Positions 11,464 through 48,535 of a stretch of 64,000 nt of DNA are shown here, piece after piece. Under the pieces are notes generated by a model. It had not been told where the DNA came from and made no database searches. It saw nothing but the letters and a program-made list of their open reading frames with translations. The stretch is from positions 128,001 to 192,000 of the forward strand of contig OZ241865.1 in NCBI GenBank assembly GCA_965203275.1, in the 5' to 3' direction. The DNA is from Bdellovibrionales bacterium. Its GTDB lineage: Bacteria; Bdellovibrionota; Bdellovibrionia; Bdellovibrionales; JAUICD01. The first letter of the stretch is position 1. Each line of letters opens with the position of its first letter. The position numbers were made by a program, and so were the translations under genes.

Positions 11464-12590
11464 CATCCGGGATCTGGGATTTGGGATCTGGGATCCGGCA
11501 TCTGGTCAGAAGGAACTTCCCTAACCCCACCCCCCGCCCTTCGATTCTGCTTTTATATTTGTATGTTTTTTATGAGTGGAATGCGAAGGCAGGCTTCCGA
11601 AGTCCTCATTTTTTTTCACTCAAAATAAATCATACCTCTGGCATGTTTTCTGGCAGTTAGCCCGACGGCTACCGCCGTCGATCAAAGGCTAACTGCCTAG
11701 AAAATCCATTTATTTTGAGTAGAGGAGGATCCTTTTATTCCTCTACACCATGTTAGGGAAACAAGATATGCTTCTAAAACTTTTAGTGAGCCAACACTTC
11801 CAGTCTCCCACTGCCCCATCCTCCACCTAATTATTTTTTGTTTGAGAGTTACGCAGAATCTAAAAGAAAATAAAAAAAACAAAAAAGGAACATCTTGTTT
11901 CCTTAAAATTTCACTCAAAATAAATCATGCCTCTGGCATGTTTTCTGGCAGTTAGCCCGACGGCTACCGCCGTCGATCAAAGGCTAACTACCTAGAAAAT
12001 TCATTTATTTTGAGTAGGGCGGATCTCCTTGCTTCTGACACCATGTTAAGGAAACAAGATATGCTTCTAAAATGTCTTTGGAAAGCAAGCGGATTGCGAT
12101 AAAGGAAATTTTTCCTTAACATCATGTTAAGAAACGAAGAGATCCTTTCTACTAAAAATAAACGGATTTTTGAGGCATTGCTCTTTTAATATAATTTTGA
12201 AAGCATTTTGTTTCCTTAACATGATGTTAAAAGAGGAAAGGATCCTCCTACTAAAAGTGGTCAGGCTTTCTAGGCGATGACCATTTTGCCAATGGGAAAT
12301 AAACATCTTGTTTCCTTAACATCGTGTAAAGAGACAAGAGGATTCTTCCTACTAAAAATAAACGGATTTTTGAGGCAATCAGCCTTTGATCGACGGCGAC
12401 AGCCGTCGGGCTGATTGCCCAAAAACAGCCAGAGGCTGGTTTATTTTTAGTGAGACAAACGCGGTCATTGTCCAAAAGTAGCCAGAGGCTAGTTTACTTT
12501 TAGTGAACCAGAGGTGTGGCTCATTTTGAGTGAAACAGAGGTCAGTTCACTTTGAGTGAACCAGAGGTCAGTTCACTTTGAGTGAAAACG
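11464..12590. repeat. Cluster of structured palindromic repeat elements (both orientations), heptamer repeats and tandem 3' tails
   Basis: Full units at about 11616-11760 (-), 11911-12054 (-) and 12311-12455 (+). Partial units at 12111-12300. CAGAGG...GTGAA tails at 12482-12590. Confidence 0.9.
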
Positions 12591-13362
12591 ATTGGCGAAT
12601 TTTTTTGATTTCTGCTTCTGATAGGCCAGTGATTTCACAGATATCTTGTAATTTTGCATTTCTCTCAATTAGTTTAAGTGCAATCTCTTTTTGTTTCTTC
12701 TCAATACCTTTCTTAAAACCCTTCTCAATACCTTCTTCACGACCCTTCTCAATACCTTCTTCACGACCCTTCTCAATACCCTTCTCAATACCTTTCTCAA
12801 TACCTTTCTCAATACCTTTCTCAAGACCCTTCTTAAAACCCTTCTCAAGACCTTCCTCACGCCCCTCGTCACGAACAAATTCTTCTCTGTCTACTTGATC
12901 CCTCCTTGCTCTCTCTTTCACCATATCAAGCTCTTGTAATGTCTCATCTTTTGATAATACCCATAAATGCTCAGCTGCTTCTGCCATGATTCCTCCTTTA
13001 TCTTTGAAATATAAATATTCCTTTTGGTCCATCTGACCTGACCTCTTTAAAAAATAACACCAATTCTCTTTTATGTCAATTAATTCTCCTAATTGGGACT
13101 GAAATTTATCTAATTCTACTATCACAAAACTCATACCCCGCGACATCACTACTTCTGGATGCCCTATCCGACGAATATTGCAAACATGGTAATAGTCCTT
13201 TATTCCTTCAAATTCTTTTAAATTTACAGTTGTGAAAACCAATGAATACACGGGAAGTAACTTATCAATATTCTCCCCTTTCCTAATTTGACCTGAATAG
13301 AGCCGAGATAGATACATCAGTAACCTATCCGTAAAATGCTTTTGAGCTGTCGTTTGTTTCAC
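12568..13362 (-). pseudogene. Rpn family / PD-(D/E)XK nuclease family transposase, N-terminally truncated
   Basis: 'QTTAQKHFTDRLLMYLSRLY..Q', 'VELDKF', GIEK repeats and 'ICEITGLSEAEI' tail. Begins right after the catalytic ExQ motif, at a repeat junction. Confidence 0.85.
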
Positions 13363-14095
13363 TCAAAATGAACTGGCCTCTGGCCACTTTTGGGTAGCCA
13401 GCCCGACGGCTACCGCCGTCGTAAAAGGCTGGCTACCTCAAAAGCTTGTTCATTTTGAGTAGAGGAGGATCCTTTTATTCCTCTACACCATGTTAGGGAA
13501 AATTTCTTTTATTACCTCAAGAGCAAGCGAGTTACAATAAAGGAACTTTTTCCTTAACATCATGTCAAAAAACGAAGATATCCTTCCCTACTAAAAGTGG
13601 TCAGGCTTTCTAGGTTGCCAGCATTTGAGAAGGCGAAAGCCTTCGGCTGGCAACCAGAAAGTGACCAGAGGTCAGACCACTTTTAGTGAAAAAAACTATG
13701 TAAAGTTTACAAAGTACCCTATAACCTTTACAATGTGGGTTGTTTTCGTTTGCAATCTGTTGCAATCTATGCATAATAAGGCAAGAAAGGATTCATTCCG
13801 GGATCCGGGATCCGGCAATCGGGCAAGCCGGCATCAGAAGGAAATCTTTTTCCTTAACATAGTGTTCATTCCGGGATCCGGGATCTGGCAATCCGGGAGC
13901 CGGCATCAGAAGGAAATCTTTTTCCTTAACATGGTGTTAAGAAATGAGGACATCCTCCTTCCTAAAATTGAACAGGCTTTTGAGGCAGTTAGCCTTTGAT
14001 CGACGGCGGTAGCCGTCGGGCTAACTGCCCAAAAGTAGCCAGAGGCTAGTTCAATTTTAGGGAAACAGAGGCTGGTTTATTTTTAGTGAAACAAA
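13357..14095. repeat. Cluster of structured palindromic repeat elements
   Basis: Full units at about 13359-13500 (-), 13550-13691 (+) and 13921-14065 (+). GGATCCG heptamers at 13796-13908. Confidence 0.9.
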
Positions 14096-14242
14096 CTATG
14101 TAAAATTTACAAAGTACTATATAACCTTTACAATGTGGATTGTTTTCGTTTGCAATCGTTTGTAATCTGTGCATAATAAGGCAAAAGGTATTACATTGAA
14201 GATTTTTTAATGATTAAAAGACTTAAAGAAAGGAGAAAAATT

Positions 14243-15160
14243 ATGAAACCATTAAGCATTATAATAATAACTATAATAACTTTATTTTTCAGTTCAACGG
14301 CTGTTTTAGCTCAAACAACTAACCTTTGTGATTCTGATTGGTATAGTTCTGCCAGTAGCAACGATGTATCAAATGCTATCAGAAGTGGCTCTAACGTCAA
14401 TCAATCTTGCTCAAGTGGGTCGTCGCCTCTACTACTTGCCTTAGATTATGGCAGAGCCGATGTGGTCCTGGCGTTGATACGGGCAGGTGCTAATTTAGAT
14501 CATCAAGACCCTTACACTCAAAAAACACCCAATCAAGTGATCACCGACCAATGTGATAGGGGCCGGATCGATCGTAGTGTGTGCAATGAAGTTAGACGTG
14601 GATTTGAGGCAAGAGCCGAAGCTCATAATAACCTGTGTAACCCGCGTTGGTGGCAGTCGTTCTATCGGCAGAGTCAAGCTCAAGCCACAAGTCGTATGCA
14701 AGCTGTGATGCGTACACCAGGTTTAGATGTTAATTATGATTGTGGTAGAGGTGATCGCCCTTTACATATTGCCCTACAAGATTCCCTAACTCCACTAACA
14801 ATAGGAGCTGCCTGGGCTATAGGAACTTTTATGCAGGAAGCTAACAATTTAGATCATTTTGTAAGGAATGGATCTGGCAGATCCATTATGGAGCTTGCAG
14901 AAGTTAGATATGACCATCAAATCAGAGGTAATTATGTTAATCTTTTAAAGAAATTTTGTAACAATCAAATAACAGAACAAGAATATAATCAACAAGCTAA
15001 TCAAATTTATGACCAAGAAGTAAGCGTATATATATATATAAAAGGATATGGAAGTGATCAAGCGTATCAAGAAGCTAGAGCTAATTTTAATCAAGAAATT
15101 TTTGGTACAACTCAAACTGGTGGAAAAAACAGAGAGCAACTCTGTTTAAAATATAGGTAA
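14243..15160 (+). CDS. Secreted ankyrin-repeat protein
   Basis: Signal peptide (AVLA/Q), ankyrin motifs 'SPLLLALDYGRADVVLALIRAGAN' and 'RPLHIAL'. SD AGGAG before the ATG at 14243. Confidence 0.8.
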   Translation: MKPLSIIIITIITLFFSSTAVLAQTTNLCDSDWYSSASSNDVSNAIRSGSNVNQSCSSGSSPLLLALDYGRADVVLALIRAGANLDHQDPYTQKTPNQVITDQCDRGRIDRSVCNEVRRGFEARAEAHNNLCNPRWWQSFYRQSQAQATSRMQAVMRTPGLDVNYDCGRGDRPLHIALQDSLTPLTIGAAWAIGTFMQEANNLDHFVRNGSGRSIMELAEVRYDHQIRGNYVNLLKKFCNNQITEQEYNQQANQIYDQEVSVYIYIKGYGSDQAYQEARANFNQEIFGTTQTGGKNREQLCLKYR

Positions 15161-15251
15161 AATAATTTTATAGTTGAGCATATTAATTATCTAAAATATT
15201 GACAGTTTGATAAAAAGTAGACACTGAAAAGCAAATAAATGCCTTAAAACT

Positions 15252-15267
15252 TGGCATCCCCCTTGCA
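15252..15267 (+). promoter_or_regulatory. Sigma-54 (-24/-12) promoter
   Basis: TGGCATCCCCCTTGCA matches GG-N10-GC, 60 nt before the 15327 gene. Confidence 0.7.
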
Positions 15268-15326
15268 GGTTTTAAAGTAGGTGAGGTTTTATTTCATGTA
15301 CTTTCAAATCAAAGGGGGATTGATTT

Positions 15327-16997
15327 GTGATCAATAAAAAGTATTTCTTAAGAACTCTATTTTGTCATACTAGTTTAATTATTTATATTGGCCTTATATT
15401 TGTCTTTATTCCTACTTTAAGCTTAGCACAAGGAGCAGAAACTCAATCTGTAAGTAGACCATTTGGCAATTTAGGTGATATGTCCTTTGAAGATAGACCT
15501 ATAATCCCTTATGATCAACAAGGCCGTGTGACAACTCCCACTATAAGCCCTCGGCATACTGAAGCAATAGAACATGCAAGAAACAACCCCGCAACGGATA
15601 CTGCAACAAAAAGTGGTAATAGATTTGGTATATATTCAATGGCTTGCACCACTATTCAAAGCACAGTCCTAAATTTAGCATGCAATCAGAAGGCTTATAA
15701 AGATGCTACCAAACCCGTTACAGATCGCTTTGAACAGATGATGGCCAATAATAGCAATGGCAGTCAGAAGGACCAATGTCAATTGACACAACAGATGAAT
15801 GAAGTAACTAAAAAAATCAATCAATCCATCACAGGCAAATGCCATACGGCCATTCTCTCATGCAAAGCTACTTGTGGTATGGCCCTTAAAAATGCAAAAG
15901 TAGCCCACGCTGCTGCTATTGAACCTACGGCCAAAGCTATGTTCTGGGCAGAGATGACCGCTATTAGCAAGAGTATGGCAAGCTGTGCTAGCAAATGGGC
16001 CAGTGTTAAGAAAACCAGCGATCTTCAGATAGCTCGTAATACAGATGCCATTAAGCAAGCTAAAGACTGCGTAGATGGTTTGGGTGGATCCGGTGAGTTG
16101 AGCGATTCTTCTAATTGCGATCAACTTCCGCTAGCTAAAAAAAACCTCTGTCAACAACTAGGTGAGGTGGCCTTTTGCAAACAACATCCAAAGATAGATT
16201 TTTGCCATAGTGTAGATAGCCTCTTTGCCGGCAAGACAGATACCCCCGGTCCTGGTCATACGAATGCCAATGCCATCGACTCAAATCCCCTAAAACAAAG
16301 GCTTCCCAGGGGGGGGGGGGACAAACGTCCAGGAGATCAATCGCAACAAGACTTAGCCACGTCTGAGATATGTCAACAAGATCCAGATAGTCCGGAGTGT
16401 AAGAGAGATGAGTGTAATTCTTTACCAACTTCAGATACTCGTAGTTTATGCCATGCAGAGGGTATAGAAGAGACTTGCAAATATGTCCCTCAATTACCTC
16501 GATGTAAAAAAAGAGCAACCGATTTAGCTAAGAATAAGGTCGACCCTTTAAGTGGTCATACAAGTTTAGGGTTAAAAGGTGGTTTTGCTGGTGGTGGAAG
16601 TGCTGGTAGTTCTGCTGGTGGAGGTTCTGGCAGTGGAGGAGGCTCTGGCAGTGGTGGCTTAGGTGGCAGTGACTTTGCAAGTGGAGATGGTGCAGAAGGA
16701 TTAAAGCCACTGGCAGGATCATCTGTGATAAAGGTGGATAAGGATGGGAATGTCCATGCTCTTGTGAATGGTCGATATACAAATTTAGGTAGTGGCAGGC
16801 GAGCAAGGAATCTCCACAAAAAAATATCAGGTTTAAGTTATAGTGATTATCTATTGAGGAAGCCTCAAAAGCGAGGACCTGCAAGTATCCAACAAGCTAA
16901 AAGCGAAGATGTAACACCTGCAAATGGTTTAACCAACTTCCAAAAAGTCTCCCGCACCATAAAGCTGTTGTTTCCTACATTGGTTTACTCAAAGTAA
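15327..16997 (+). CDS. Secreted Cys-rich protein with Gly/Ser-rich linker (Bdellovibrio-type)
   Basis: Signal-like N-terminus, many Cys, GGGSG linker and RGPAS motif near the C-terminus. Confidence 0.8.
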   Translation: MINKKYFLRTLFCHTSLIIYIGLIFVFIPTLSLAQGAETQSVSRPFGNLGDMSFEDRPIIPYDQQGRVTTPTISPRHTEAIEHARNNPATDTATKSGNRFGIYSMACTTIQSTVLNLACNQKAYKDATKPVTDRFEQMMANNSNGSQKDQCQLTQQMNEVTKKINQSITGKCHTAILSCKATCGMALKNAKVAHAAAIEPTAKAMFWAEMTAISKSMASCASKWASVKKTSDLQIARNTDAIKQAKDCVDGLGGSGELSDSSNCDQLPLAKKNLCQQLGEVAFCKQHPKIDFCHSVDSLFAGKTDTPGPGHTNANAIDSNPLKQRLPRGGGDKRPGDQSQQDLATSEICQQDPDSPECKRDECNSLPTSDTRSLCHAEGIEETCKYVPQLPRCKKRATDLAKNKVDPLSGHTSLGLKGGFAGGGSAGSSAGGGSGSGGGSGSGGLGGSDFASGDGAEGLKPLAGSSVIKVDKDGNVHALVNGRYTNLGSGRRARNLHKKISGLSYSDYLLRKPQKRGPASIQQAKSEDVTPANGLTNFQKVSRTIKLLFPTLVYSK

Positions 16998-17973
16998 TCC
17001 GGATTCGGCATCCGGGATCCGGGATCTGGGATCCGGCAGAACTTTTTCCTTAACATCGTATTAAAAAATGAGGACATTCTCCCTACTAAAAGTAAACGGA
17101 CTTTTGAGGCATTGCTCTTTTTAGACAGCGTGAGCTGTCAGAGCAATGTCCAAAAACACACCAGAGGTTGGTTTACTTTTAGTGAACCAACTCCTTAACA
17201 TGGTGTTAAATGAGAAATGGATCCTCATTACTAAAAGTGGTCAGGCTTTCTAGGTTGCCAGCATTTGAGAAGGCGGTAGCCTTCGGCTGGCAACCAGAAA
17301 GTGACCAGAGGTCAGACCACTTTTAGTGAAACAAACTCCTGTAGCCTGCCTTCGCATCCCACTCATAATATTTATATTTAATATTTATATTTTTTGAAAA
17401 TTACGCAGAATCTAAAAAAGAATAAAAAAAATAAAAAAACGAAACTCTTTTTCCCTAACATCGTGTTAAAAAACGAAGAGATCCTCTCTACTAAAAGTGG
17501 TAAAGCTTTCTAGGTTGCCATTGGTGATGAAGGAATTTTTTCCTTAACATCATGTTAAAAGACGAAGAGATCCTTCCCTACTAAAAGTAAACGGACTTTT
17601 GAGACAATGACCATTTTGCCAATGGCGAAATATCAAAGTGAAATAAACATCTTGTTTCCTTAACATTGTGTTAAGAAATGAGGAGATCCTTCCCTACTAA
17701 AAGTAAACGGACTTTTGAGACAATGACCATTTTGCCAATGGCGAAATATCAAAGTGAAATAAACATCTTGTTTCCTTAACATTGTGTTAAGAAATGAGGA
17801 GATCCTTCCCTACTAAAAGTAAACGGACTTTTGAGACAATGACCATTTTGCCAATGGCGAAAGCCATTGCGGTCATTGTCCAAAAGTAGCCAGAGGCTAG
17901 TTTACTTTTAGTGAACCAGAGGTGTGGCTCATTTTGAGTGAAACAGAGGTCAGACCACTTTTAGTGAAACAAC
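16998..17973 (+). repeat. Cluster of structured palindromic repeat elements incl. 117-nt tandem duplication
   Basis: Heptamers at 16998-17037. Full units at about 17045-17187, 17193-17331 and 17771-17915. Duplicated truncated units at 17540-17870. Tails run to 17973. Confidence 0.9.
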
Positions 17974-18819
17974 TCACTTTTGACTAATATGTCTTAAAGC
18001 TTCTGTTAATGAGGTTTTTTTATTTGTTTTTTCTGATCTCTGGCCAATAATTAAAGCACAAGGAATGTGATAAATCCCTCCAGGGAATTTTTTAGGCCGG
18101 ACTCCAGGTATGACAATAGCATTCTGGGGGACTCGTCCTTTAAAAACTTGAGGCTCTGAAGTAGTTACATCTATAATAGGAGTGCTTGCCGTGATCACAA
18201 CACCCGCACCTAAAACAGCACCCTCCTCCACAAGAACACCTTCTACAATCACACACCGACTGCCTACAAAGACTTGATCCTCTATGATCACAGGTTTTGC
18301 TTGTAAAGGTTCTAATACACCTCCAATACCAACACCACCAGATAAATGGACATTTTTACCAATATAAGCACAACTGCCTACAGTCGCCCATGTATCTACC
18401 ATGGTTGATGAGCCTACAAAAGCTCCTATATTTACAAAACTAGGCATTAACACCACAGAAGGTGCAATATAAGAACCCTTACGAATTGTAGCAGGAGGAA
18501 CGACTCGAATGCCATTTTCTGGTTGTTGATCACTCCAATCCTGCAAGAAGACTTTATCACGATAGGTTAAATCAGAGCCTTTACAGAAAGTCTTTATAGG
18601 AGATATTTGCAAATAAAGCAAAATAGCCTTTTTGAGCCATTGATGAACAATCCACTGGCCTGAAATTTTCTGACAGACTCTCCAGTGTCCTGATTCTAAA
18701 CCATCAAAAACATCCTTTATTACAGATACAAGATCACAATGGTGTTCTTTACAGAAAGCTTTATCATCAAATGCTCGCTCTATAAGCTCTTTTATTTCTT
18801 TCTCATTATTGCTGACCAT
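17974..18819 (-). CDS. dapD: Tetrahydrodipicolinate N-succinyltransferase
   Basis: 'WIVHQWLKKAILL', 'MVDTWATVGSCA', 'HLSGGVGIGGVLEPLQA'. Confidence 0.95.
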   Translation of the reverse strand: MVSNNEKEIKELIERAFDDKAFCKEHHCDLVSVIKDVFDGLESGHWRVCQKISGQWIVHQWLKKAILLYLQISPIKTFCKGSDLTYRDKVFLQDWSDQQPENGIRVVPPATIRKGSYIAPSVVLMPSFVNIGAFVGSSTMVDTWATVGSCAYIGKNVHLSGGVGIGGVLEPLQAKPVIIEDQVFVGSRCVIVEGVLVEEGAVLGAGVVITASTPIIDVTTSEPQVFKGRVPQNAIVIPGVRPKKFPGGIYHIPCALIIGQRSEKTNKKTSLTEALRHISQK

Positions 18820-19747: not shown

Positions 19748-19812
19748 AATCACTAATGGTTTTATTAAAATAAAAGATTGATTACATTACATTAAAGAAG
19801 ACTGTCATAAGA

Positions 19813-20981: not shown

Positions 20982-21432
20982 TTTCACTCAAAATAAATCA
21001 TGTCTCTGGCATGTTTTCTGGCAGTTAGCCCGACGACTGTCGTCGTCGATCAAAGGCTAACTGCCTAGAAAATCCATTTATTTTGAGTAAGGGAGGATCT
21101 CATCGTCTCTTGACATGATGTTAGGGAAAAAGTTCTTTCTTACATCTTTTGGCTGTCGCCGTCGATCAAAGGCTGATTGCCTCAAAAGTCCGTTTACTTT
21201 TAGTAGGGAGGATCCCTTCGTCCCTTAACTCCATGTTAAGGAAAATATCCTTTTAATACCAGTTAGCCCGACGGCTGTCGCCGTCGATCAAAGGCTGATT
21301 GCCTCAAAAATCCGTTTATTTTTAGTAGGGGAGGATCCTCTCGTCTCTTGACTACATGTTAAGGAAAAATTCAGTTTTAGGATCTGATGCCTGACTGCCG
21401 GATCCCGGGTTGCCGGATCCTAGATGCCGGAT
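20982..21432 (-). repeat. Cluster of structured palindromic repeat elements
   Basis: Full unit at about 20984-21130, half units at 21150-21367 and GGATCC heptamer-like repeats at 21379-21432. Confidence 0.88.
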
Positions 21433-21602: not shown

Positions 21603-23336
21603 ATGGACCTGAATAAAAACACAGCCATTGGATTACTTAAATTTTTAAAAGAATTTAGTGAATTAAGAAGTAAAAAGATCTTAACAGTGGATCAATTTGA
21701 GTCAGTTATTTATTTTTCTGACATCCCTCAAGAAAAAGAATGTAGTGTGATCACAAGGCATATCGAACAAAATCAAAAAAATCAAAAAAATATCAATTAT
21801 GATAAATGGATTGAGGTGAAAAAGCCTCAAAATATAGAACCCCCTCATCCACCCTCTACCATAACTGATTGGATTAAACATCAAGACTTAAATTCTTATC
21901 ATCAAGATTTAAAGCTTTTCTCTTATATTATACAAGAAAGTCTAGGTGTGAATGCTGAAGTCTTTACTCAAAAAGTTTTTATAGAAGATAATCCAAAAGT
22001 CCAACAAGCATTTGATATGTACTATCAACAAAAATGGCTTCCGTGGGCTGAAGAAAAAAGACGCATTGAACCTGTACAGAAACTTTATAATCAACTTTAT
22101 AACATTTATAACAAATATAAAAATCTAAGCGAAAACTATCAAATAGTATTAGGTTTAGGACTTCTCTCTACTTCAAGCTCAAATTCAAAAAATCAATCCC
22201 AATATATCAAAAGACATATTGTCACCACCCCAGCCTTAGTAGAATTTCATATTCAAACAGGCACAATAACCATTAAGCCTAAAGAAGATATGGAACTATC
22301 CCTTGAGCAAGAAATGCTTGATCTGAAAGAAATACCAGATGTGAGTGACAAGATAGACAAACAACTCAGTGAAATAGGAAATAATTTTTGGTCAAATGAT
22401 GCATTTTATAATTGTCTTAAGTCATGGATTCACTCGTATGATTCAGAAGCTCAATTTTGTCAAAATATTAATCAATTAAACTCGAGCTAAAGAAATAAAA
22501 ATATTAGGACAGGTGAGCATTGATGATCATAAAATTCGCTCTTATGAAGATGTTATTAAATTAAATGATCGCCTAGAAGCTCGCAGGGCAAGTCAAAAGT
22601 TAAACAAATTATGGGCCAATAAAATTTCAAGCTTAGATACTTCTAGTGATTTAGGTAATAATTATCACTACTTCAAAGATCTTTGTGAACCATTAGAAGA
22701 ATGCTTGAAGATTCATAAATCTGTTGAAGGCATAAAATCTATATTAAGTAAATACAAAATAGCACAACCGCAATGGCATTTACAAAATTTAAAAAAAGAA
22801 TTACAAATCATCAAAGCAGTATATGCCAATAGACAAAAAGCAAACATAGAATCTCAATTTGAAAACCTTACTTTACAATTAAAACCTTTTGAAAACCAAA
22901 AAAATCAAATGGCCTATCAAATGATACAATGTATTTATAATAGAGATTGTGATTCTTATGATTTTTTCTATACAAAGCTAAAAGATATTATTATGTATCA
23001 AGAGAGTTTTCAAAAAATAAATTCAATGTTTTTTTGAAAATAATAGATAAAGGGTTTCAGGTGATACCTCAATATGAAATTGGAGATTATAAGATCGATA
23101 TGGTTATTATCGGTCAAAAAGGCCAATTAGCTATTGAATGTGATGGTGATTTTTACCACCATGAAGGCAATAAAGCAGATGATCAACAAAGACAGTGGAA
23201 ATTAGAGCGGTGTGGTTGGACATTTTGGAGATTAAAGTATAGCAGATTTCAGTGGGACAAAGATAAATCTTTAGAAGAGCTATGGGAAACGCTCAAACAA
23301 ATGAATATAAATCCTAAGATTGGTAGCTGGGCTTAA
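21603..23336 (+). pseudogene. Remnant of a large SF1 helicase / very-short-patch-type REase (MTES_1575-like) gene, in three pieces
   Basis: N-terminal 'QKLYNQLY...YQIVLGLGLL...IKRHIVT' and C-terminal 'VIPQYEIGDYKIDMVI...LAIECDGDFYH...RQWKLERCGWTFWR'. No helicase motifs are left between them. Confidence 0.7.
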
Positions 23337-25965: not shown

Positions 25966-26234
25966 TGAGCCAACTCCTCCAGCCTGCCTTCGCATCCCAC
26001 TCATAATATTTATATTTTTTGAAAATTACGCAGAATCTAAGAAGAATAAAAAAACAAAAAAAGAAATCTTGTTTTCTTATGCATTTTGAGTGAAGCAAAC
26101 GGCTGGTTTATTTTTAGTGAGACAAACGTGGTCATCACCAGAAAGTGACCAGAGACTAGTGGCACAAAATCTCTTTCGAATCATAACCCACTGATTTTAC
26201 TAAACTTTATTTTTGCAGGCTATCAAACTCAGGA
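25953..26234 (+). repeat. Repeat cluster: element tails, AT-rich linker module and TCAAACTCAGG-ended module
   Basis: Shares 'GCCTGCCTTCGCATCCCACTCATAA...TTACGCAGAATCTAA' with 17343-17415 and CTAGTGGCACAAAATC with 46441-46456 and 50255-50270. Confidence 0.8.
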
Positions 26235-30041: not shown

Positions 30042-30155
30042 GCAACACCTCCTATTTAATGGTTTTAAAAAATATTTAATTCTATACATAATTTAATTTT
30101 ATACATAAAGTTATATCGGTCACATAATTGAAAAACTTAAGTTAAATCTTTTATT

Positions 30156-31510
30156 TCACTAAAAGTGGTCAAGCTTTCTAGGTTGCCAGCATTTAAGAAG
30201 GCGAAAGCCTTCGGCTGGCAAGCCAAAAGTAGCCAGAGGCTAGACCACTTTTAGTGAGCCAACTCTTGACAAGCTTAAACATAAGTGCTTAGCTAGTACT
30301 TCCAACAACTCAGAGGGCAATAATAAGGAGGTTTTATGTCTGCTAAAGTTACTCAAAAAGGCATACAGACAGCAAAGGAAAAGCAAGATATTTTATTACC
30401 AAAAAAAGCTGGTTCTATCCACAACGATGCTTTCCAAGGTGTTTTTGATGATGAAGACAGACTAAAGCGACTGCTTTTTTTCCACTCAAAATAAATCATG
30501 CCGTCTGTTTCACTTGAAATGAACCACACCTCTGGTGTGTTTTTTGGTGTTGCCTGCAAAGGCTTTCGCCTTTGACAAAATAGGCAACACCTAAAAAATC
30601 CATTCATTTCAAGTAAGAAAGGATATCCTTGCCACTTGACATCATGTTAAGGAAAATGTCCTTCTAATGGCAGTTAGCCCGACGGCTACCGCCGTCGATC
30701 AAAGGCTAACTGCCTAGAAAATCCATTTATTTTGAGTAGGGAGGATCCTTTTATTCCTTTACACCATGTTAAGGAAATTTTTCTTTTATTGTCTTAAGAG
30801 CAAACAAGCTTACAAATGAAACTCTTTTTCCCTAACATTGTCTTTATCCGGGATCTGGGATCCGGCAACCCACCATCGGGCAGATAGTTATCAAAAGGAA
30901 ATTTTTCCTTAACATGTAGTTAAGAGACGAGGAGATCCTCCCCTACTCAAAATGCATAGATTTTTGAGGCAATGACCATTTTGTCAAAGGCGAAAGCCTT
31001 TGCGGTCATTGCCCAAGGTGTAAGAAGGAACTTTTTCCTTAACATGTGGTCAAGAGACGAGAGGATCCTCCCCTACTTGAAATGAACAGATTTTTGAGGC
31101 ATTGCTCTTTTTAGACAGCGTGAGCTGTCAGAGCAATGCCCAAAAACACACCAGAGGTGTGGTTCATTTCAAGTGCAAAAGACGGCATGATGCATTTTGA
31201 GTGAAAAAAAACGTATCGAATTTTGAGTATATCTTGTATAATTTGAAGGACTGTGATATTCTTAAAGATGTAAAAGATAATGTGATTCGACCTTCATTAT
31301 GGACCTTTCAACAGATATGGTCTTTAAAGAAAGGTCAAGATCAGAAGTCAAGTAAAAGTCTTGTTTCCTTAATATGGTGTTTATCAAGAGATCCGGCAAA
31401 CAGGCAAGGATGAAGCAAACGCCTTGTTTTCTCATGATATTCATCTGGGATCCCGGATTGACACAATGTTAAGGAAACAAGCTGGTTAGCACGACGGCTG
31501 TCGCCGTCGA
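30156..31510. repeat. Cluster of structured palindromic repeat elements with embedded gene stubs
   Basis: Units at about 30157-30258 (+), 30510-30655 (-), 30669-30776 (-), 30904-31015 (+) and 31034-31175 (+). Degenerate pieces run to 31510. Confidence 0.88.
30336..30494 (+). pseudogene. N-terminal stub of an Rpn/YhgA-like gene truncated by a repeat
   Basis: Strong SD AAGGAGG. MSAK...'IHNDAFQGVFDDEDRLKRLL' resembles the HDxxFKxxF...FL start of Rpn proteins. The stop comes from repeat sequence. Confidence 0.55.
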
Positions 31511-31604
31511 TCTCTCTAACACCTATAAATAAAACATTCTCAAAAAAAAAGATATCCACATTCGCAAATCAAATGTCAAGCTCAGGAACTGTCAAAGTCA
31601 GGAC

Positions 31605-32582: not shown

Positions 32583-32969
32583 TTTAACTCCTTATATTTT
32601 TAGTTTTATGGAATAAAGAAATAATATTAAAGTATATACCTGTAAAGTATAGGCCATAATTGTTTTTTTTGTCTAATAGACTAAAAACCTTGCAAATACT
32701 AAAGTGAAGTAAAACAGGGTTTCTGATGGGAGACAAAAATGGTCAATGTAGACAAAATACGTCAAGCTTTTACATAAAACCATTTATTTATTTATCCTTA
32801 CGTAATAACTTAAAGTAAATAGATCACATAATTTTTCTAAACTCAAAAGATTAGATAAAAAATAAGAGCCGTTTTTAAGCCCTTATTAGAGAGTAAATAA
32901 AACACTGTCAAAAAAAGATATTCACATCCACAAATCAACTGTCAAACTCAAGACTGTCAAATTCAGGAT

Positions 32970-34945: not shown

Positions 34946-34958
34946 AAAAACATTCCTC

Positions 34959-39060: not shown

Positions 39061-39094
39061 ATATACAATAGAGTGATCTATATGTCACTTTTGA

Positions 39095-40191: not shown

Positions 40192-40261
40192 CAATAGCCT
40201 ATACAATAACAAAGTTTTAAAAATAATACTGTTAATCATCAAAAGGTAAAAAGGTGTTGCA

Positions 40262-41428: not shown

Positions 41429-41432
41429 ACCA

Positions 41433-42572: not shown

Positions 42573-42654
42573 TTGTTGATTTATTGACATCTATAAAATA
42601 GTGTATTTAAAATATAAATTTATTATAGTATTGCAGATGCAAAAGGAGAACACT

Positions 42655-44004
42655 ATGGATAAAGACGTACAAAATTTAATTTCTACACTTGTTAAAAAAG
42701 TCACAGATGCTAACTCTGATATTCAAGGACCTAGAGTTCCTGTGGATTCTCAAAGTCAATACAATCAAACGCTGATAGAAAGCGTTCATCAATTAAGAGG
42801 TCGACCTCTTTTTTTACCTTACATTGGTAAGGGGCGTGGTCATGGTGTTTATGTAGAGCTTGAAGATGGTAGTATCAAAATGGATCTGATCAATGGCATT
42901 GGTATTCATATTATGGGGCATAGCCATCCTGTTTTAATGGAAACAGCCCTTCAAGCTAGTCTTTCAGATATACTTATGCAAGGTAATTTACAGCTGAATA
43001 AAGAATGGATTCATTTGACAGAGAAATTAGTACAACTTGCTTCTAAAAAATCCAGATTGAGACATTGTTGGCTAACAACTTCAGGTTCTATGGCTAATGA
43101 AAATGCTCTTAAAATGACTCGACAAAAACACACACCGGCTCGAAAGATCATCACTATGAAAGAAGCCTTTGCTGGCCGTACGACTATGATGGCTGAAATA
43201 TCAGATAACCCTGCTCATAAAATAGGATTGCCTTCATACAATGAGGTTTTAAGAGTGGATTTTTACGATGCTAAAAATGCTCGTTCTGTAGAACATTCTC
43301 TAGCTCAACTTAAAAAACATATTGCAGAAAATAAGAATAATATTGCTGCCTTTGTTTTTGAACCTCTTTTAGGAGAAGGTGGTTATAAAGTAGCACCTAG
43401 AGAATTTTTTATCCCACTACTTGAAGAGTGCCAAAAGGCGGGCCTGGCTATATGGGTTGATGAAATTCAAACTTTTTGCCGGACAGGTGCCTTTTTTGCT
43501 TATGAAAGATTAGACCTAGGTCCTTATATAGATGTTGTTACAGTAGCTAAGACTCTCCAGTTGGGAGCTACCCTTTACACTCCTGAATATAATCCTGGGC
43601 CAGGCTTAATTGCTGGTACTTTTGTTGCGTCCACTCCTCAATTAGCTGTCGCATTAAAAATTTTAGAAATTTTAGATGCTGATGGTTATATGGGATCTCA
43701 GGGAAAGATTCAATCTATCCATGAATCATTTGTCACTATGTTAGAAAGGCTATCTCAAAATAGCTGTAAAGGATTGATCTCTGATATAGGGGGTATGGGT
43801 TTAATGGTTGCTTTCACTCCATTTGATGGACAAAAAGAAAAACAAACACAGCTGGTTAAAGCACTTTTTAAAAATGGTTTGATTGCTTTTGGATGTGGTC
43901 ATGGCCCTCATCGGATTCGCTTTTTAATCCCTGCCATCATGCAATCAAAAGATATTTTAATAACTGAAAAAATAATAGAGCAGTCTTTATTAGAAATAAA
44001 ATAA
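42655..44004 (+). CDS. Class III PLP-dependent aminotransferase
   Basis: 'SGSMANENALK', 'FAGRT', 'EPLLGEGG', 'DEIQT', 'AKTL'. Confidence 0.9.
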   Translation: MDKDVQNLISTLVKKVTDANSDIQGPRVPVDSQSQYNQTLIESVHQLRGRPLFLPYIGKGRGHGVYVELEDGSIKMDLINGIGIHIMGHSHPVLMETALQASLSDILMQGNLQLNKEWIHLTEKLVQLASKKSRLRHCWLTTSGSMANENALKMTRQKHTPARKIITMKEAFAGRTTMMAEISDNPAHKIGLPSYNEVLRVDFYDAKNARSVEHSLAQLKKHIAENKNNIAAFVFEPLLGEGGYKVAPREFFIPLLEECQKAGLAIWVDEIQTFCRTGAFFAYERLDLGPYIDVVTVAKTLQLGATLYTPEYNPGPGLIAGTFVASTPQLAVALKILEILDADGYMGSQGKIQSIHESFVTMLERLSQNSCKGLISDIGGMGLMVAFTPFDGQKEKQTQLVKALFKNGLIAFGCGHGPHRIRFLIPAIMQSKDILITEKIIEQSLLEIK

Positions 44005-44047
44005 ATTAGAAATAAAATAAGATTTCTGTGTACTGTGTATGAATTAA

Positions 44048-44821
44048 TTATGATGTTTTGGAAATTTTAGAAATACGATATTTCATTATGATGATGTCTT
44101 TGAGCATTTTAAGAGGGTCGAGCCATAAGTTCACAGTACTGCCTGCTATATCATGCCATACTACAGGAAGGTTTTTGTAGGTATAGTGAAAGTGCCTTGC
44201 TAAAAGCAAAACTTCTATATCAAAAGCAAAATGATCACATTCAATGAGAGGGAAAATCTTTTTTGCAACCTTGTAACGGAAGGCTTTAAAGCCACATTGT
44301 GTGTCTTTAATAGGTAACCGAATAAATTGTTGTATGACAATACCAAAGATTTGACTTATTTTTTGTCTTATAAAAGTTTGTTTGACTAAGGATTGACGAT
44401 GCTTTCTATCAGCAATCAAGATATCTATATGAGGATTTTCTTTAAACTCTGCTACAAATTTTAAAACCTCAGCAAGAGGTGTTGCCAGATCAGCATCGCA
44501 AAAGAAAATATATTCTCCTGTAGCATATTGCATACCTGATTTGACAGCAAAGCCCTTACCACGATGGACCTTGTTATCAATTAATTGAAACTGCACACAG
44601 GTTTTAATGCTTTTATCTTCTATATATTTTTCAGCTACTATTAAAGTTTTATCAGTGGATTTTTCTACAACGATAATTACTTCTATATCTAAATTCATTT
44701 TAGTAAAAAAAGATTTAATACTTTTAATGGCAGATGGGAGTCTAGCTTCTTCGTTATAGGCAGGAATGACAATAGAAATACGATCTTTTACAGGCTTTTC
44801 TGTTGTAGCATTTTGTGACAT
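44048..44821 (-). CDS. GT2 polyprenol-phosphate glycosyltransferase (dolichyl-P-glucosyltransferase-like)
   Basis: 'SIVIPAYNEE', 'GKGFAVK', 'DADL', 'DTQCGFK', 'FDIE'. Confidence 0.9.
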   Translation of the reverse strand: MSQNATTEKPVKDRISIVIPAYNEEARLPSAIKSIKSFFTKMNLDIEVIIVVEKSTDKTLIVAEKYIEDKSIKTCVQFQLIDNKVHRGKGFAVKSGMQYATGEYIFFCDADLATPLAEVLKFVAEFKENPHIDILIADRKHRQSLVKQTFIRQKISQIFGIVIQQFIRLPIKDTQCGFKAFRYKVAKKIFPLIECDHFAFDIEVLLLARHFHYTYKNLPVVWHDIAGSTVNLWLDPLKMLKDIIIMKYRISKISKTS

Positions 44822-44932
44822 TTGAGTCTCCTCTTGACTAGAGAGAGTTATTTTATAGCATACCTTCCATTTGATAGGCGTCTTTTTTTATTTGATAGGC
44901 GTCTGTTTTATTTGTCAAACAAATGGTTTTTC

Positions 44933-46132
44933 TTAATTAGGTATTTCTTTTGCAGAATTAATATGAAGTGTACGAGTAGGGAAGGCAAAATCAATAGTTA
45001 ATTTTTCTGCCAATTTGAGTATGGCTAAATGAATTTCTTGATTGACTATAAGCTCTTGACCCCAGCTAGGAACTTCTAAAAAGCAATAGAGCATCACATC
45101 TAAACTGGACTCTTTATAACTTTGGAAAACAACATGAAGCTTTTCTTTATTTGTGTAGGGATGTTGCCGGATAATATCTTTGATCCCTTCTATGAAAGCC
45201 TCTATTTTATGGGAAGGGGTATCATAAGTCACTGAATAAAATGCTTTCATCCTTCGCATTTTACGTCTTCCCATATTATCTATGTTCATTGTAGATAAAT
45301 CGCCATTGGGGATAACCACTAAGGAATCATAAAAAGTACGAATGCGAGTGGAACGAAAGCCTATATCTTCTACTGTTCCTTCTACACTACCAATGATCAC
45401 CCAATCTCCTACTTGAAAGGGTTGATCTAAAAAAATCATAATCGATCCAAAAAAATGACTGCACATATCCTTAGCTGCTAAAGCAAAAGCTAATCCGCCT
45501 AAGCCTAAACCAGCCATGACACTCACCACATTAATGCCTAAGTTTTGAAGAGCTACTAAAATACCAAAAACCACTACTAATATTTTCAATGCACGTTTTA
45601 AAGTGTGTGCCATCTGCTGACTAATTAAAGATTGGCTTTTGTTCATCCACTGAACAGAAAAGTCAACGATGATATCTGTCAACCTATAAAAAGCAGTTAA
45701 AATAGCAAGACATAGCACCACTTTAATTAAAAATAAAAGAAAAGTTAATGTACTACCTTGAACGTTGAAAAGATGGATCCATAAAAACCAAAAAAGACAA
45801 GCTAAAAGCCATTTATTAGAAGGTCTTAAAGCTTCCAAGACGTGATCATCCCAAGTTGTTTGTGTTTTTGCAATCCATTGGTTTAAATATTTTTCTAAAA
45901 AGGTCAATATGTACCTTATAAAGAAGCGACTGACAGTCAAACCTAAAAGTAGCCCTAACCATTTCCACAGTGCCACTTGGAATAACTCAAAGTGCATGAG
46001 GTTTTGTATTCTTGCTTCAAAAAGCAAATCATCCAAATATGTAAATCCTGTTGCCTGTGCTTTTAAAGTACAAAACAACAAAGTTATAAAAAATAATAAA
46101 AAGTGCTTTTTCTTTTTTGCCGTTATTGTCAT
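44933..46132 (-). CDS. Small-conductance mechanosensitive channel (MscS family)
   Basis: 'AGLGLGGLAFALAAKD', 'PFQVGD', 'GFRSTRIR', 'FAFPTRT'. Confidence 0.92.
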   Translation of the reverse strand: MTITAKKKKHFLLFFITLLFCTLKAQATGFTYLDDLLFEARIQNLMHFELFQVALWKWLGLLLGLTVSRFFIRYILTFLEKYLNQWIAKTQTTWDDHVLEALRPSNKWLLACLFWFLWIHLFNVQGSTLTFLLFLIKVVLCLAILTAFYRLTDIIVDFSVQWMNKSQSLISQQMAHTLKRALKILVVVFGILVALQNLGINVVSVMAGLGLGGLAFALAAKDMCSHFFGSIMIFLDQPFQVGDWVIIGSVEGTVEDIGFRSTRIRTFYDSLVVIPNGDLSTMNIDNMGRRKMRRMKAFYSVTYDTPSHKIEAFIEGIKDIIRQHPYTNKEKLHVVFQSYKESSLDVMLYCFLEVPSWGQELIVNQEIHLAILKLAEKLTIDFAFPTRTLHINSAKEIPN

Positions 46133-46635
46133 TTCAATCCTTGTGATTGTGATTTTGTGATTTTAAATTATAAAGTTATTCTTTTAAAGAAGCTTATTAT
46201 ACCACAATTTTTTATTTTTGTCTAGCTTTTTTGTCTATTATTTTAAAAAATAACAATAACAAAAAGTTTAATCTTTATAGGTATTTGTCACATAAAAGAG
46301 AAGTTTTTGTTTATTTATAATAAGCTTGTTTTTACTTTTAGTAGGGATAATATCCTTGTTTTTTACATGATGTTAATCCTGAGTTTGAGAGCAATGGAAA
46401 AATAAAGTTGTGGGATTTCATTAGGTTATGAGCGTAATAAGATTTTGTGCCACTAGGTTTTTGTTTTTGTGGCAGAATTTTGGACAATCTATTAAGATTA
46501 AGATGATTCTACTTTTACTTTTAAGCTTTGATGGGTTTTGCTGGGCTTTATTGGTATTTTAATCTTGGACAAAGGAAGCATTTAAGAGATATTTATATGT
46601 TGATCCGCTCACAAAAAATGATTTGAAACAAAATC

Positions 46636-47298
46636 TTAAAAGGGGTTATTGCTATAGAAATTCAGAAGCTTCTTTTTTTCTGTTATAATCCAGGTATCAT
46701 TATAGATATTTCTTGCTCCAATAAGAAATTTTACATCCTTATAACCATTATTGTTTATTATTATGTTTCTTGGATTTGATTCACCTAACTGACTGGCAGT
46801 GACCACACGAGGAGGGGCCATCCCGCCATTACCTGTAGTAGGTGTTTTTAGAAAGCAAGGTTTCCGTCTTGTTGTTGCTGTTGCTCTGTCACATGCAGTG
46901 CTACTGTTGACATTGTTTTCATCGTTTTGACCTTGTGCATCTTTAGCTAGAGGCCCTGTGTAGCTTACTGGTAGTCCTGTTATATCGGATTTTCGAAACT
47001 TATTGACGTTGTGTGGAGTGCCATACCTATTACCATGAGGCCATCCAGTCGAATAATGATAAACACCCTTTGGATTAAATCCTAGTTGTGAAAAGTTGGC
47101 CGTACCATATCCATAAGTAGTGATAAATACCTTTTCCATTGTGTAAAGTGTAGATAAGGAAAGTTTAGCCTCTCCCTGTCTAGCTTTCGCTTTGTACTTT
47201 TGATATTGTGGGATTGCCACAACACTTAAAAGACCAATGATGGCTACTGCCACCATTAACTCTATAAGAGAAAAGCCTTTTTGATTTGATCTGTCCAT
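46636..47298 (-). CDS. pilA: Type IVa major pilin
   Basis: 'QKG/FSLIELMVAVAIIGLLSVVAIPQYQKYKAKARQGEAK' prepilin motif. Confidence 0.88.
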   Translation of the reverse strand: MDRSNQKGFSLIELMVAVAIIGLLSVVAIPQYQKYKAKARQGEAKLSLSTLYTMEKVFITTYGYGTANFSQLGFNPKGVYHYSTGWPHGNRYGTPHNVNKFRKSDITGLPVSYTGPLAKDAQGQNDENNVNSSTACDRATATTRRKPCFLKTPTTGNGGMAPPRVVTASQLGESNPRNIIINNNGYKDVKFLIGARNIYNDTWIITEKKKLLNFYSNNPF

Positions 47299-47350
47299 AA
47301 TATCCTTTTATTTCTCTCTATACCTTTAGTGAGTACAAAAAAATGAGCCT

Positions 47351-47763
47351 AGTGATTTCAATGACTTAGCACTGTAACTTTTGTATAAAAGTCACAATTT
47401 GAAAGAGTAAAAAACAGGCAAATTTTTGCAAGAAAATTGTTTTGAAAAATCAAACAAAGCAAAAGTCAGAAAACACAAATGAAAATTTATTGTTTATTTC
47501 ACTGATCTTATGTCTTTAAGATTGGTCAAGTGTTTTAAGATGATACAAAAATTTAAAAAAGTGATTCTTTTTGATACAAAATGTCACTTTTTTTGATTTT
47601 TTTTAACAAAAATATAAAGTTTTATGTCATAATAAACGATAAGAATTGTGTTAGACGAAAAATTAGAAATTTCTAAAGTCGACCTAAAAAAGTCTAACAA
47701 TTACAAACACTTAATACTGTGACTTTTATACAAAAGTTACAGTATTAAATAGCTGAAATCACT
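47351..47763. repeat. Segment bounded by inverted repeats (26-bp exact core at 47371-47396 and 47718-47743)
   Basis: ACTGTAACTTTTGTATAAAAGTCACA and its exact reverse complement, plus outer AGTGATTTCA/TGAAATCACT. Confidence 0.85.
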
Positions 47764-48535
47764 GAATTTCCAATTTCCAAATACTTTTTCCCCATCTTTT
47801 AGAAAATACAGAGAAATGAACTTCTTGTTCCCTTAACATCTCACTCAAAATGCATCATGCCTTTCTTTCACTAAAAGTGGTCAGGCTTTTGAGACAATGA
47901 CCATTTTGTCAAAGGCGAAAGCCTTTGCGGTCATTGTCCAAAAGTGGCCAGAGGCCAGTTCACTTTGAGTGAAACAAACTTATTGAAATCACTAGATTTC
48001 CAATTTTCAAATACCCTTTTCCTACCTTTTCAAAAAATCCAAAAGGACGAACATCTTCTTTCCCTAACATCCTGTTAAAAAGCAAGGTGATCCTTCTTAC
48101 TAAAAGTGGTCAGGCTTTCTAGGTTGCCAGCATTTGAGAAGGCGAATAGCCTTCGGCTGGCAACCAGAAAGTGACCAGAGGTCAGACCACTTTTAGTGAA
48201 ACAGCTCAGCCTTTGATCGACGGCGAGAGCCGTCGGGCTAATGATTAGAAGGATGTTTTCCTTAACATGGTGTTAAGAAACGAAGAGATCCTCCCTACTC
48301 AAAGTGAACAGGCTTTTGAGACAATGACCATTTTGTCAAAGGCGAAAGCCTTTGCGGTCATTGTCCAAAAGTAGCCAGAGGCTAGTTCAATTTTAGGGAA
48401 ACAGAGGCCTGGTTTATTTTTAGTGAAAAAGATAAGAAGGCGAATAGCCTTCGGCTGGCAACCAGAAAGTGACCAGAGGTCAGACCACTTTTAGTGAACC
48501 AGAGGTGTGGTTCATTTCAAGTGCAAAAAACGGCT
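47754..48535 (+). repeat. Cluster of structured palindromic repeat elements
   Basis: Units at about 47868-47974, 48060-48200 and 48257-48400, with halves and tails to 48535. Confidence 0.9.

What the first reader, a model, noticed from the sequence alone, without database searches (positions are those of the whole stretch)
11464..48535. Family of ~140-nt structure-conserved, sequence-covarying repeat elements (candidate novel ssDNA/RNA mobile element)
At least a dozen full or near-full copies in about 8 clusters share one architecture. Order on the CCAGAGG strand: TTCCTTAAC-N5-GTTAA, a GATCCT box, CTACT, a 13-bp outer stem P1, an inner stem P2 with a bulged base, an apical hairpin P3, a side hairpin P4 with an invariant CC-AGA-GG, and GTGAAA. 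Stems differ between copies but stay paired. P1 examples: ACTAAAAGTGGTC/GACCACTTTTAGT (13590), CCTAAAATTGAAC/GTTCAATTTTAGG (13961), ACTTGAAATGAAC/GTTCATTTCAAGT (31075). P2 examples: GGTTGCCAGC, GGCAGTTAGCC, GACAATGACC, GGCATTGCTCT. P4 arms: TGACC, TAGCC, CACACC, CATGCC. Compensatory change on this scale within one genome implies selection on the fold. No transposase, RT or integrase gene is in the window, so any mobiliser would act in trans (inference).
Basis: partly seen in the sequence, partly recalled or inferred. Interest (0 to 1): 0.9.

Follow-up and report, generated by a model that had tools for sequence, protein, structure and literature searches.

The report
Self-targeting three-armed hairpin DNA repeat
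A 145-base non-coding unit that folds into a three-armed hairpin fills about 6% of a small Bdellovibrio-like bacterial genome, swaps its paired stems as whole modules, and inserts with short A-rich joints and no target duplication, so it looks like a new family of selfish repeats copied from a folded single strand by an enzyme that is still unidentified.

Summary
Confirmed and much larger than stated: 27 profile hits in the window (15 near-full) and 1,330 in the genome (748 near-full, 5.9% of it). It was found only in this genome, one congener and three probably mis-binned contigs. Covariation is real: 96% of cells pair and 31 of 40 pairs change on both sides; G·T is favoured over A·C on the CCAGAGG strand. 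Linkage follows the fold, not the line: the P1 arms match in 494 of 561 copies, yet for the two commonest alleles P1 and the adjacent P4 assort freely. Insertions show no target duplication, lose target DNA, carry A-rich 3′ filler and prefer older copies. No RT, Y1/Y2 HUH, IS110 or integron integrase was found in the genome. Best reading: a non-autonomous element copied by target-primed synthesis from a folded single strand (RNA slightly ahead of ssDNA); template switching explains part of the covariation. The Avd-like four-helix-bundle cassette is its only neighbour enriched in both species; Rpn is enriched in one. Not REP/REPIN, attC or a classical MITE; closest described is bcr1. Five earlier notes of this scan report the same family elsewhere in this genome.

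The parts
11614..11761 (-). full copy
   Evidence: nhmmer model 1-145
11909..12054 (-). full copy
12111..12295 (+). two 5′ halves (model 1-77 and 1-86), each cut off by the next head
12311..12455 (+). full copy
12460..12587 (+). stack of four 3′ fragments of different alleles, three of them joined at the P4 loop
12568..13356 (-). rpn (TIGR01784/PF12784) gene lacking its 5′ part; the 3′ end of the 13356 copy abuts it
13356..13501 (-). full copy
13549..13691 (+). full copy (P1 at 13590)
13921..14065 (+). full copy used as exemplar; sub-parts listed below
13924..13940 (+). head: invariant CCYTAACAT, three variable bases, GTHAA; sequence-conserved, not a covarying hairpin
13961..13973 (+). P1 5′ arm (13 bp; pairs with 14049-14061)
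13977..14035 (+). P2a (6 bp), bulged A at 13983, P2b (10-11 bp), asymmetric internal loop, P3 (6-7 bp) with a GNNA loop at 14008-14011
14036..14048 (+). P4 hairpin with AGA loop; hot spot for insertion of new copies
14049..14065 (+). P1 3′ arm and terminal GAAA
14066..14091 (+). 26-nt 3′ stub of another allele, starting in the P4 loop
17045..17332 (+). two full copies in tandem
17450..17746 (+). three 5′ halves; two belong to a 116-bp tandem duplication
17771..17970 (+). full copy plus two 3′ stubs
20982..21367 (-). one full copy and two 5′ parts
30155..30258 (+). headless copy that starts with the reverse complement of a 3′ end (inverted-junction form)
30336..31353 (+). second rpn gene split by the cluster: residues 1-37 and 169-217 match a paralog at 100%, and the part between is largely replaced by the cluster
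30480..31206 (.). back-to-back cluster: full copies 30507-30655 (-) and 31034-31177 (+), 5′ parts 30668-30777 (-) and 30904-31016 (+), outer 3′ stubs with A-runs at both junctions
47829..47974 (+). copy whose head is joined to a reversed 3′ end
48059..48535 (+). two full copies (48059-48202, 48257-48402) and stacked 3′ fragments
11518..11611 (+). fragment of the second structured family X; further fragments at 11799-11909, 17335-17469 and 25977-26066
11467..11500 (+). CCGGGAT/CTGGGAT heptamer run of the type that flanks the four-helix-bundle genes; further runs at 13798, 13871, 17012 and 30848

Best explanation
A genus-confined, non-autonomous selfish element of about 145 nt. The CCAGAGG strand folds into a three-way junction (P1, P2/P3, P4) behind a sequence-specific head. 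It spreads by target-primed copying of that folded single strand: a broken target end pairs by microhomology with the A-rich 3′ end, the element is copied, and synthesis rejoins the target further on. This loses some target DNA, leaves filler or fold-back bases, and makes no duplication. Older copies and other hairpin repeats are preferred targets because they offer homology. Copying into a resident copy swaps interior modules in place, and template switching re-matches the arms. SHOWN: fold, strand bias, module swapping, junction anatomy, self-targeting. INFERRED: target priming, the template (RNA about 0.3, ssDNA about 0.2), and any role of the Avd-like protein. The enzyme is not identified.
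For: Fold kept across species: 96.2% of cells paired, against 77.5% shuffled and 35-47% slid. G·T 51 vs A·C 17 distinct single-mismatch arm pairs; rare variants 23:4 in the same direction. In 13 filled/empty pairs out of 204 clusters tried, the gap is -1 to 20 bp and no duplication is seen; an rpn gene in the window lost about 120 codons at a cluster. 50 of 61 scored 3′ junctions carry 1-6 filler bases, 122 of 199 being A. GAAAC|AGAGG joins occur 139 times. A subfamily with the tail GAAATGTTAAGG meets reversed heads 98 times, with 68 different downstream contexts. 232 of 298 3′-truncated copies are followed by a new head. Orthologous sites in two species keep a copy but with different interior alleles.
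Against: No RT in G000, a single contig estimated 90% complete. No RNA data exist here. Loops are GNRA 338 vs GNYA 197 of 580, so there is no RNA tetraloop constraint. 5′-truncated copies (225) do not outnumber 3′-truncated ones (298), unlike typical retrocopies. The empty alleles are paralogs 74-99% alike and not all independent, so some target loss may be later. No empty site or excision was seen in four public runs (contigs only). Module exchange is not free: only 1 of 561 P1×P4 and 0 of 1,207 P2b×P3 allele quartets show all four combinations.
Confidence: 0.5

Rival explanations
1. No dedicated mobility: palindromes spread by replication template switching, slippage and gene conversion, and the matched arms arise mutationally, not by selection.
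For: 48 inverted-interior forms; 13 copies with fold-back units in the P4 loop in relatives' loci; weak fold-back excess in the 5′ leader on both strands; a P1-mismatched body found 14 times; PMC8794818 (abstract, start of introduction).
Against: Template switching should erode the bulge, the internal loop and P4, yet these persist across species. The G·T bias is one-sided. Copies are dispersed in 440 clusters with defined ends. MutL is present.
Confidence: 0.17
2. REPIN/PATE-like ssDNA element moved by a Y1 or Y2 HUH transposase that has been lost or comes from outside.
For: Intergenic (6 of 2,056 features in genes); mosaic clusters like BIMEs; no target duplication; GNNA loops; GTAG lies on the minus strand next to P1 in many copies.
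Against: No Y1 or Y2 in G000. The only Y1 of G001 is a plain IS200 with no copy within 1.5 kb. The GTAG position is not invariant. Filler bases and target loss do not fit the precise joints recalled for HUH enzymes.
Confidence: 0.13
3. attC-like, structure-specific recombination site used by a tyrosine recombinase, with CCYTAAC as R box; exchange on folded substrates swaps apical modules.
For: CCYTAAC resembles RYYYAAC (PMC7439510 passages). All three repeat families meet at CCYTAAC. 44 complete copies end in a complementary GTTAAGG, and none of them has the internal GTTAA, against 302 of 553 others. Linkage decays with depth in the fold.
Against: No integron integrase: 55 bits against a cut-off of 265. 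The two recombinases are XerD-like and a 187-aa protein found in 23 of 31 order genomes. 553 of 597 copies lack the closing box. Junctions are imprecise and show no sharp crossover at the AAC. The 44 copies may be one lineage.
Confidence: 0.08
4. Rpn PD-(D/E)XK nucleases are the cognate mobiliser, as RAYT is for REPs.
For: 44 of 46 rpn genes or fragments in G000 have a copy within 300 bp, against 349 of 1,415 other genes. RpnA leaves 3′-OH ends that can prime template switching (PMC5350276 abstract).
Against: 0 of 5 rpn loci in G001 have a copy within 600 bp. Pilin (17 of 24) and an unrelated family (14 of 16) are enriched too. Many rpn genes are broken by the element, so they look like tolerant targets.
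Confidence: 0.05
5. A domesticated host element (mRNA-stabilising stem, regulator binding site or chromosome organiser) kept by host selection.
For: Copies persist at orthologous sites, including between rpsQ and rplN, in two species. The head is a pseudo-palindrome like a dimer binding site.
Against: No orientation bias relative to flanking genes or, roughly, to replichores (298 vs 299). Copies break genes and each other. G000 lacks the rpsQ-rplN copy.
Confidence: 0.07

Closest known systems
bcr1 repeat of the Bacillus cereus group (PMC3184786, passages read)
   Same: About 150 bp, dispersed, branched fold kept by compensatory changes, mobiliser not named in the passages read.
   Different: bcr1 is flanked by 5-bp direct repeats and is transcribed. 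Here there is no duplication, there is target loss and A-rich filler, the fold is a three-way junction with a separate head, and stems swap as modules. No sequence comparison with bcr1 was run.
REP/BIME/REPIN with RAYT (PMC3333891 and PMC3337134, passages read)
   Same: Hundreds of intergenic hairpin copies in mosaic clusters, probably with a single-stranded stage.
   Different: Four times longer than a REP, not an inverted doublet, GTAG not invariant, no Y1 enzyme in the genome.
Integron attC sites (PMC7439510, passages read)
   Same: Structure conserved over sequence, extrahelical base, asymmetric internal loop, RYYYAAC-like motif.
   Different: Branched fold, closing box in only 44 of 597 copies, no IntI, no gene-cassette arrays, imprecise junctions.
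Prokaryotic MITEs (PMC10969869, two passages; PMC3184786)
   Same: Short, non-coding, high copy number, mobilised in trans.
   Different: Only a loose 9-14-bp terminal similarity whose variants do not covary; no target duplication; no matching IS ends.
DGR retrohoming / 23S rRNA IVS cassettes with Avd-like PF05635 proteins (PMC10053308, passages read)
   Same: Replacement-type insertion; an Avd-like gene is the one neighbour enriched in both species.
   Different: No RT, no TR/VR pair, no A-to-N bias. PF05635 occurs in 129 of 384 order genomes, nearly all without this element.

Membership tests
Rfam families | Score at the gathering threshold | tested here: not met
   0 hits in the window. An E-value scan of 5 loci gave 4 sub-threshold hits; only a 23-bit miRNA hit fell on a copy.
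REP/REPIN-RAYT | Cognate Y1 (RAYT) gene flanked by the repeats | tested here: not met
REP/REPIN-RAYT | Conserved GTAG at the 5′ foot of a 30-40-nt palindrome, in inverted doublets | tested here: not met
   The CTAC position varies (TTAC, CTCC, TAGT); the unit is 145 nt.
attC / integron | R box closing the hairpin | tested here: not met
   A closing GTTAAGG is present in 44 of 597 copies.
attC / integron | Integron integrase in the genome | tested here: not met
attC / integron | Recombination of the folded strand by IntI | not testable with these tools
   Needs an assay.
MITE (DDE) | Terminal inverted repeats shared with a resident IS | tested here: not met
   IS256 and IS1634 ends differ; terminal variants are unlinked, p = 0.42. 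Other IS families were not surveyed.
MITE (DDE) | Target-site duplication | tested here: not met
   13 filled/empty pairs; 14 solo copies do not differ from shuffles.
IS91/ISCR or IS200/IS605 derivative | Y2, Y1 or TnpB parent element with the same ends | tested here: not met
   (the only TnpB-domain hit is a 1,365-aa Cas12)
IS110/IS1111 bridge RNA | DEDD recombinase next to the RNA | tested here: not met
Retro-element (retron, DGR, group II derivative) | RT gene in cis or in the genome | tested here: not met
   None in G000. G001 has three RT hits; two loci have no head motif, and one has a single motif that was not examined.
Retro-element (retron, DGR, group II derivative) | Discrete transcript with the predicted ends | not testable with these tools
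   No RNA holder listed.
bcr1-type group A repeat | Branched fold kept by compensatory changes | tested here: met
bcr1-type group A repeat | 5-bp flanking direct repeats | tested here: not met

The most novel reading that the evidence does not exclude
A bacterial SINE-like element: a structured RNA trimmed four bases beyond its closing stem, A-tailed by host enzymes, chaperoned by the Avd-like four-helix-bundle protein and copied into the chromosome by target-primed reverse transcription through an unrecognised or host polymerase. Its 3′ tail would program the target, and the same pathway would move family X and the widespread heptamer/four-helix-bundle cassettes.
Probability: 0.18. Interest if true: 0.92.

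Novelty: new variant of a known kind. Interest (0 to 1): 0.63.

Why it matters
How structured bacterial repeats without a cognate transposase move (bcr1-type repeats, heptamer/four-helix-bundle cassettes) is open. This genome offers about 750 near-full copies, 180 fully paired module combinations and dozens of scorable junctions, so the mechanism can be read from sequence. Linkage that follows the fold rather than the line, and a subfamily whose 3′ tail matches its target, would be unusual for any bacterial element. It is also a warning case: strong covariation within one genome can partly come from template switching. The limits are a narrow range (one genus), an uncultured host, and no enzyme or expression data.

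Tried and rejected
Mobiliser searches in G000 were blank for Y1, RVT_1, IS110 and IS91 Y2; a motif scan of 1,848 self-called proteins for YADD and HUH gave 4 unconvincing hits. The proteome was not scanned whole against Pfam: only 51 window proteins and 4 others. IS256 and IS1634 ends are unlike the element. The 187-aa recombinase is order-wide. MutL loss was rejected. The Rpn link failed in G001. Wider range: the model hit 3 of 151 order genomes and 1 of 151 phylum genomes, the own one; only 20 candidates per genome were scored. Metagenome scan: 2 hits, both without the fold. Viral scans: 0 and 1 chance hit. Phages and plasmids: none. No RNA holder listed. Laying 4 runs (contigs only) gave no clean empty site. 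dif, CtrA-box, attI, hammerhead and sigma-70 readings of the head were compared from recall only and dropped; the promoter scan put no site in the element. The head pseudo-palindrome is not a covarying hairpin. G004 as a second genus was rejected: its element-bearing contigs are 90-93% identical to G001. No supplements were read.
Full report
1. Observation. The window is G000:C1:128001-192000 of a 2.57-Mb single-contig genome, 35% G+C, 90% complete. Pattern hits with the same fold lie in records titled Bdellovibrionales bacterium. Four runs that hold about a fifth of the stretch's words are labelled sponge metagenome, and one of them was laid. The quoted P1 stems are at 13590, 13961 and 31075. 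A profile finds 27 hits in the window, 15 near-full, and 1,330 in the genome, 748 near-full, covering 5.9%. 663 of 1,170 CCAGAGG anchors have a complementary arm, against 9 of 600 random sites. Rfam has no match. Only 6 of 2,056 head or tail features lie inside called genes, and there is no orientation bias relative to flanking genes.

2. Anatomy (CCAGAGG strand). A variable purine-rich leader ends in TTT. The head is CCYTAACAT-N3-GTHAA, followed by a weak 4-5-bp hairpin. Then come P1 (13 bp), a 3-nt junction, P2a (6 bp), a bulged base (A in 563 of 597), P2b (10-11 bp), an asymmetric internal loop, P3 with a GNNA loop, P4 with an AGA loop, the P1 3′ arm and GAAA. In 58 distinct copies (20 from G000, 29 from G001, 5 from G004, 4 from a named Bdellovibrionales record), 96.2% of cells pair and 31 of 40 pairs change on both sides; controls give 77.5% (shuffled) and 35-47% (slid). 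That control ignores relatedness. RNAalifold predicts no pairs in the head, and its third GTHAA base varies against an invariant partner, so the head is a sequence motif rather than a helix.

3. Strand and polymer. Arm pairs with a single mismatch show G·T 51 times and A·C 17 times on the CCAGAGG strand (148 vs 27 copies). Rare variants are C>T or A>G 23 times and G>A or T>C 4 times. These counts are not fully independent, but copies lie equally on both genome strands, so the bias points to a single-stranded stage. Loops are GNRA 338, GNYA 197 and five-base 45. That fits DNA GNNA mini-hairpins (recalled) at least as well as RNA.

4. Module exchange. With anchors that do not require pairing, P1 alleles match in 494 of 561 copies, against 84 expected; 539 of 613 have all four tested helices intact. 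Normalised mutual information is 0.90 between the P1 arms, 0.54 from P1 to P2b, 0.28 to P3, 0.18 to the loop, and 0.14 or less between the two head modules tested and the body. The two commonest P1 and P4 alleles occur in all four combinations (44, 44, 44, 39), although P4 lies directly beside the 3′ arm. Exchange is limited: such quartets are 1 of 561 for P1×P4, 31 of 1,207 for P4×P2b and 0 of 1,207 for P2b×P3. 487 of 597 parsed copies are fully paired, in 180 combinations. Orthologous sites in G001 and G004 (before recG, after mutY, between rpsQ and rplN) hold copies with different interior alleles, and one site is filled in G004 only. Template switching is a real rival for the matched arms (PMC8794818): 41 + 7 inverted-interior forms exist, 13 copies in relatives' loci carry fold-back units in the P4 loop, and one P1-mismatched body occurs 14 times.

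5. Junctions. Of 204 single-orientation clusters, 13 had an empty paralogous allele; the gap was -1 to 20 bp, with extra bases at the ends and no duplication. Several of the 13 share a site. Fourteen solo copies show no excess of flanking direct repeats. In the window an rpn gene is 100% identical to a paralog on both sides of the 30480-31206 cluster but lacks most of residues 38-168. Of 92 3′ junctions with an empty allele, 61 were scored after dropping poorly aligned ones, those whose target was another copy, and duplicates. Eleven are flush or share microhomology; 50 carry 1-6 filler bases (the method caps at 6), 122 of 199 being A. The element targets itself: 139 GAAAC|AGAGG joins; outer brackets match in 59 of 180 nested cases, against 24 shuffled; 232 of 298 3′-truncated copies are followed by a head, and 114 of 225 5′-truncated ones are preceded by a 3′ end. 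Only 17 of 83 P4-loop cases keep the matching 5′ arm upstream, so replacement is commoner than clean nesting. A subfamily ends in GAAATGTTAAGG and meets reversed heads 98 times, with 68 downstream contexts. None of its 44 complete copies has the internal GTTAA, against 302 of 553 others; this may be one lineage. Identical bodies occur at up to 16 different flanks, so spread or conversion is recent.

6. Range. BLAST, pattern and covariance-model searches find it in G000, G001 (242 head motifs) and three small contigs of G004. Those contigs are 90-93% identical to G001, while non-cassette proteins on a large G004 contig are 31-49% identical to G000, so they are probably a mis-binned third species of the genus. 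It was not found in the other genomes searched: 148 of the order sample and 150 of the phylum sample, which overlap. Nor was it found in the viral, metagenome, phage or plasmid collections.

7. Mobiliser. G000 has no Y1, Y2, RT or IS110 hit. Its two tyrosine recombinases are XerD-like and a 187-aa protein found in 23 of 31 order genomes. IS256 and IS1634 ends are unrelated. Rpn genes are flanked in G000 (44 of 46, against 349 of 1,415) but not in G001 (0 of 5). Four-helix-bundle genes (TIGR02436/PF05635; PDB 2GSC at E = 0.001), which resemble DGR Avd (PMC10053308), are flanked in both species: 11 of 11 downstream in G000, 10 in the same orientation, and 12 of 17 examined (of 19 hits) in G001, against a background of 0.14-0.20. 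But the family occurs in 129 of 384 order genomes and on large G004 contigs without the element, so it is not sufficient, and the link may only reflect a preferred target.

8. Companions. A second structured family, X (about 270 nt, z = -10), has modular stems and a similar asymmetric loop; it begins with CCCTAAC and ends at a head. Heptamer runs follow heads in 115 cases. All three families meet at CCYTAAC.

9. Mechanism. Target loss, filler, microhomology, fold-back leaders and homology-led self-targeting fit target-primed copying of a folded single strand better than the precise joints recalled for HUH and site-specific recombinases, or the duplications of DDE enzymes. A 3′ end four bases beyond a stable stem followed by A-rich bases resembles a trimmed, tailed bacterial RNA (recalled). 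The missing RT, the GNYA loops and the lack of 5′-truncation excess argue the other way. I give the combined model 0.5 (RNA 0.3, ssDNA 0.2).

10. Comparison and novelty. It works most like bcr1 and REPIN/BIME elements and shares design features with attC, but it fails a defining test for each. Papers seen: passages of PMC3184786, PMC3333891, PMC3337134, PMC7439510, PMC10053308 and PMC10969869; abstract and outline of PMC5350276; abstract and opening text of PMC8794818; all others as search listings only; no supplements. Ten searches listed no description of this family; the library lacks most subscription papers. Earlier notes of this scan describe the same family in other windows of this genome; they were read after and are not independent support. 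Verdict: a real new family and a new variant of the non-autonomous structured repeats, with an unusual junction signature and an unknown enzyme; interest 0.63.

Noticed in passing
window 11518-11611, 11799-11909, 17335-17469, 25977-26066; intact in L115-L119: Second structured repeat family X, about 270 nt, with roughly 45-95 core motifs in the genome, covarying stems and some inverted interiors; a shorter hairpin with the same inner motifs occurs in G001 and G004.
   Followed up: partly
L042, L045 (G000); L041, L174-L188 (G001); L040, L043 (G004): 99-aa four-helix-bundle genes flanked by heptamer runs, each with an upstream hairpin that sequesters the ribosome-binding site; 14-19 hits per genome.
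   Followed up: partly
window 13695-13790 and 14095-14190: A duplicated block of about 95 bp with 10/12 sigma-70-like sites lies after two different copies; it is probably the promoter of the multi-copy gene at 14210.
   Followed up: no
window 31510-31593, 50257-50384, 32894-32950: IS1634 left-end fragments without a transposase.
   Followed up: partly
L167 (G000), L166 (G001): A Cas12-sized protein (1,365 and 1,343 aa) occurs in the two genomes of the genus and not in G002-G004.
   Followed up: no
L002:1417-1980: A 187-aa tyrosine recombinase without the N-terminal domain is conserved in 23 of 31 order genomes; its role is unknown to me.
   Followed up: partly
G004 contigs C1, C4, C11 (L013-L015): Probably mis-binned from a species of genus g1 (90-93% identical to G001).
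   Followed up: yes
L031:7700-8520 and L008:1480-2190: Copies between rpsQ and rplN lie in tandem units of about 200 bp that include the end of rpsQ; L015 also shows repeated rplN pieces.
   Followed up: partly
G000 genome-wide: Large paralog families: ankyrin proteins (73), Rpn (50), two small coiled-coil families (33, 31), pilins (27), and 16 long repeat-rich proteins mostly flanked by the element.
   Followed up: partly
L109, L111, L112 (G001): A group II intron-type RT, an internally deleted copy of it, and a 590-aa RT that looks retron-like (labels from recall).
   Followed up: partly
L120:418-727: A sub-threshold Rfam hit (Rickettsia sRNA47, 44.6 bits against 60) away from the element; probably compositional.
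   Followed up: no
window 21603-23336: Three consecutive ORFs ending in a DUF559/MTES_1575 nuclease domain; they look like one fragmented gene.
   Followed up: no
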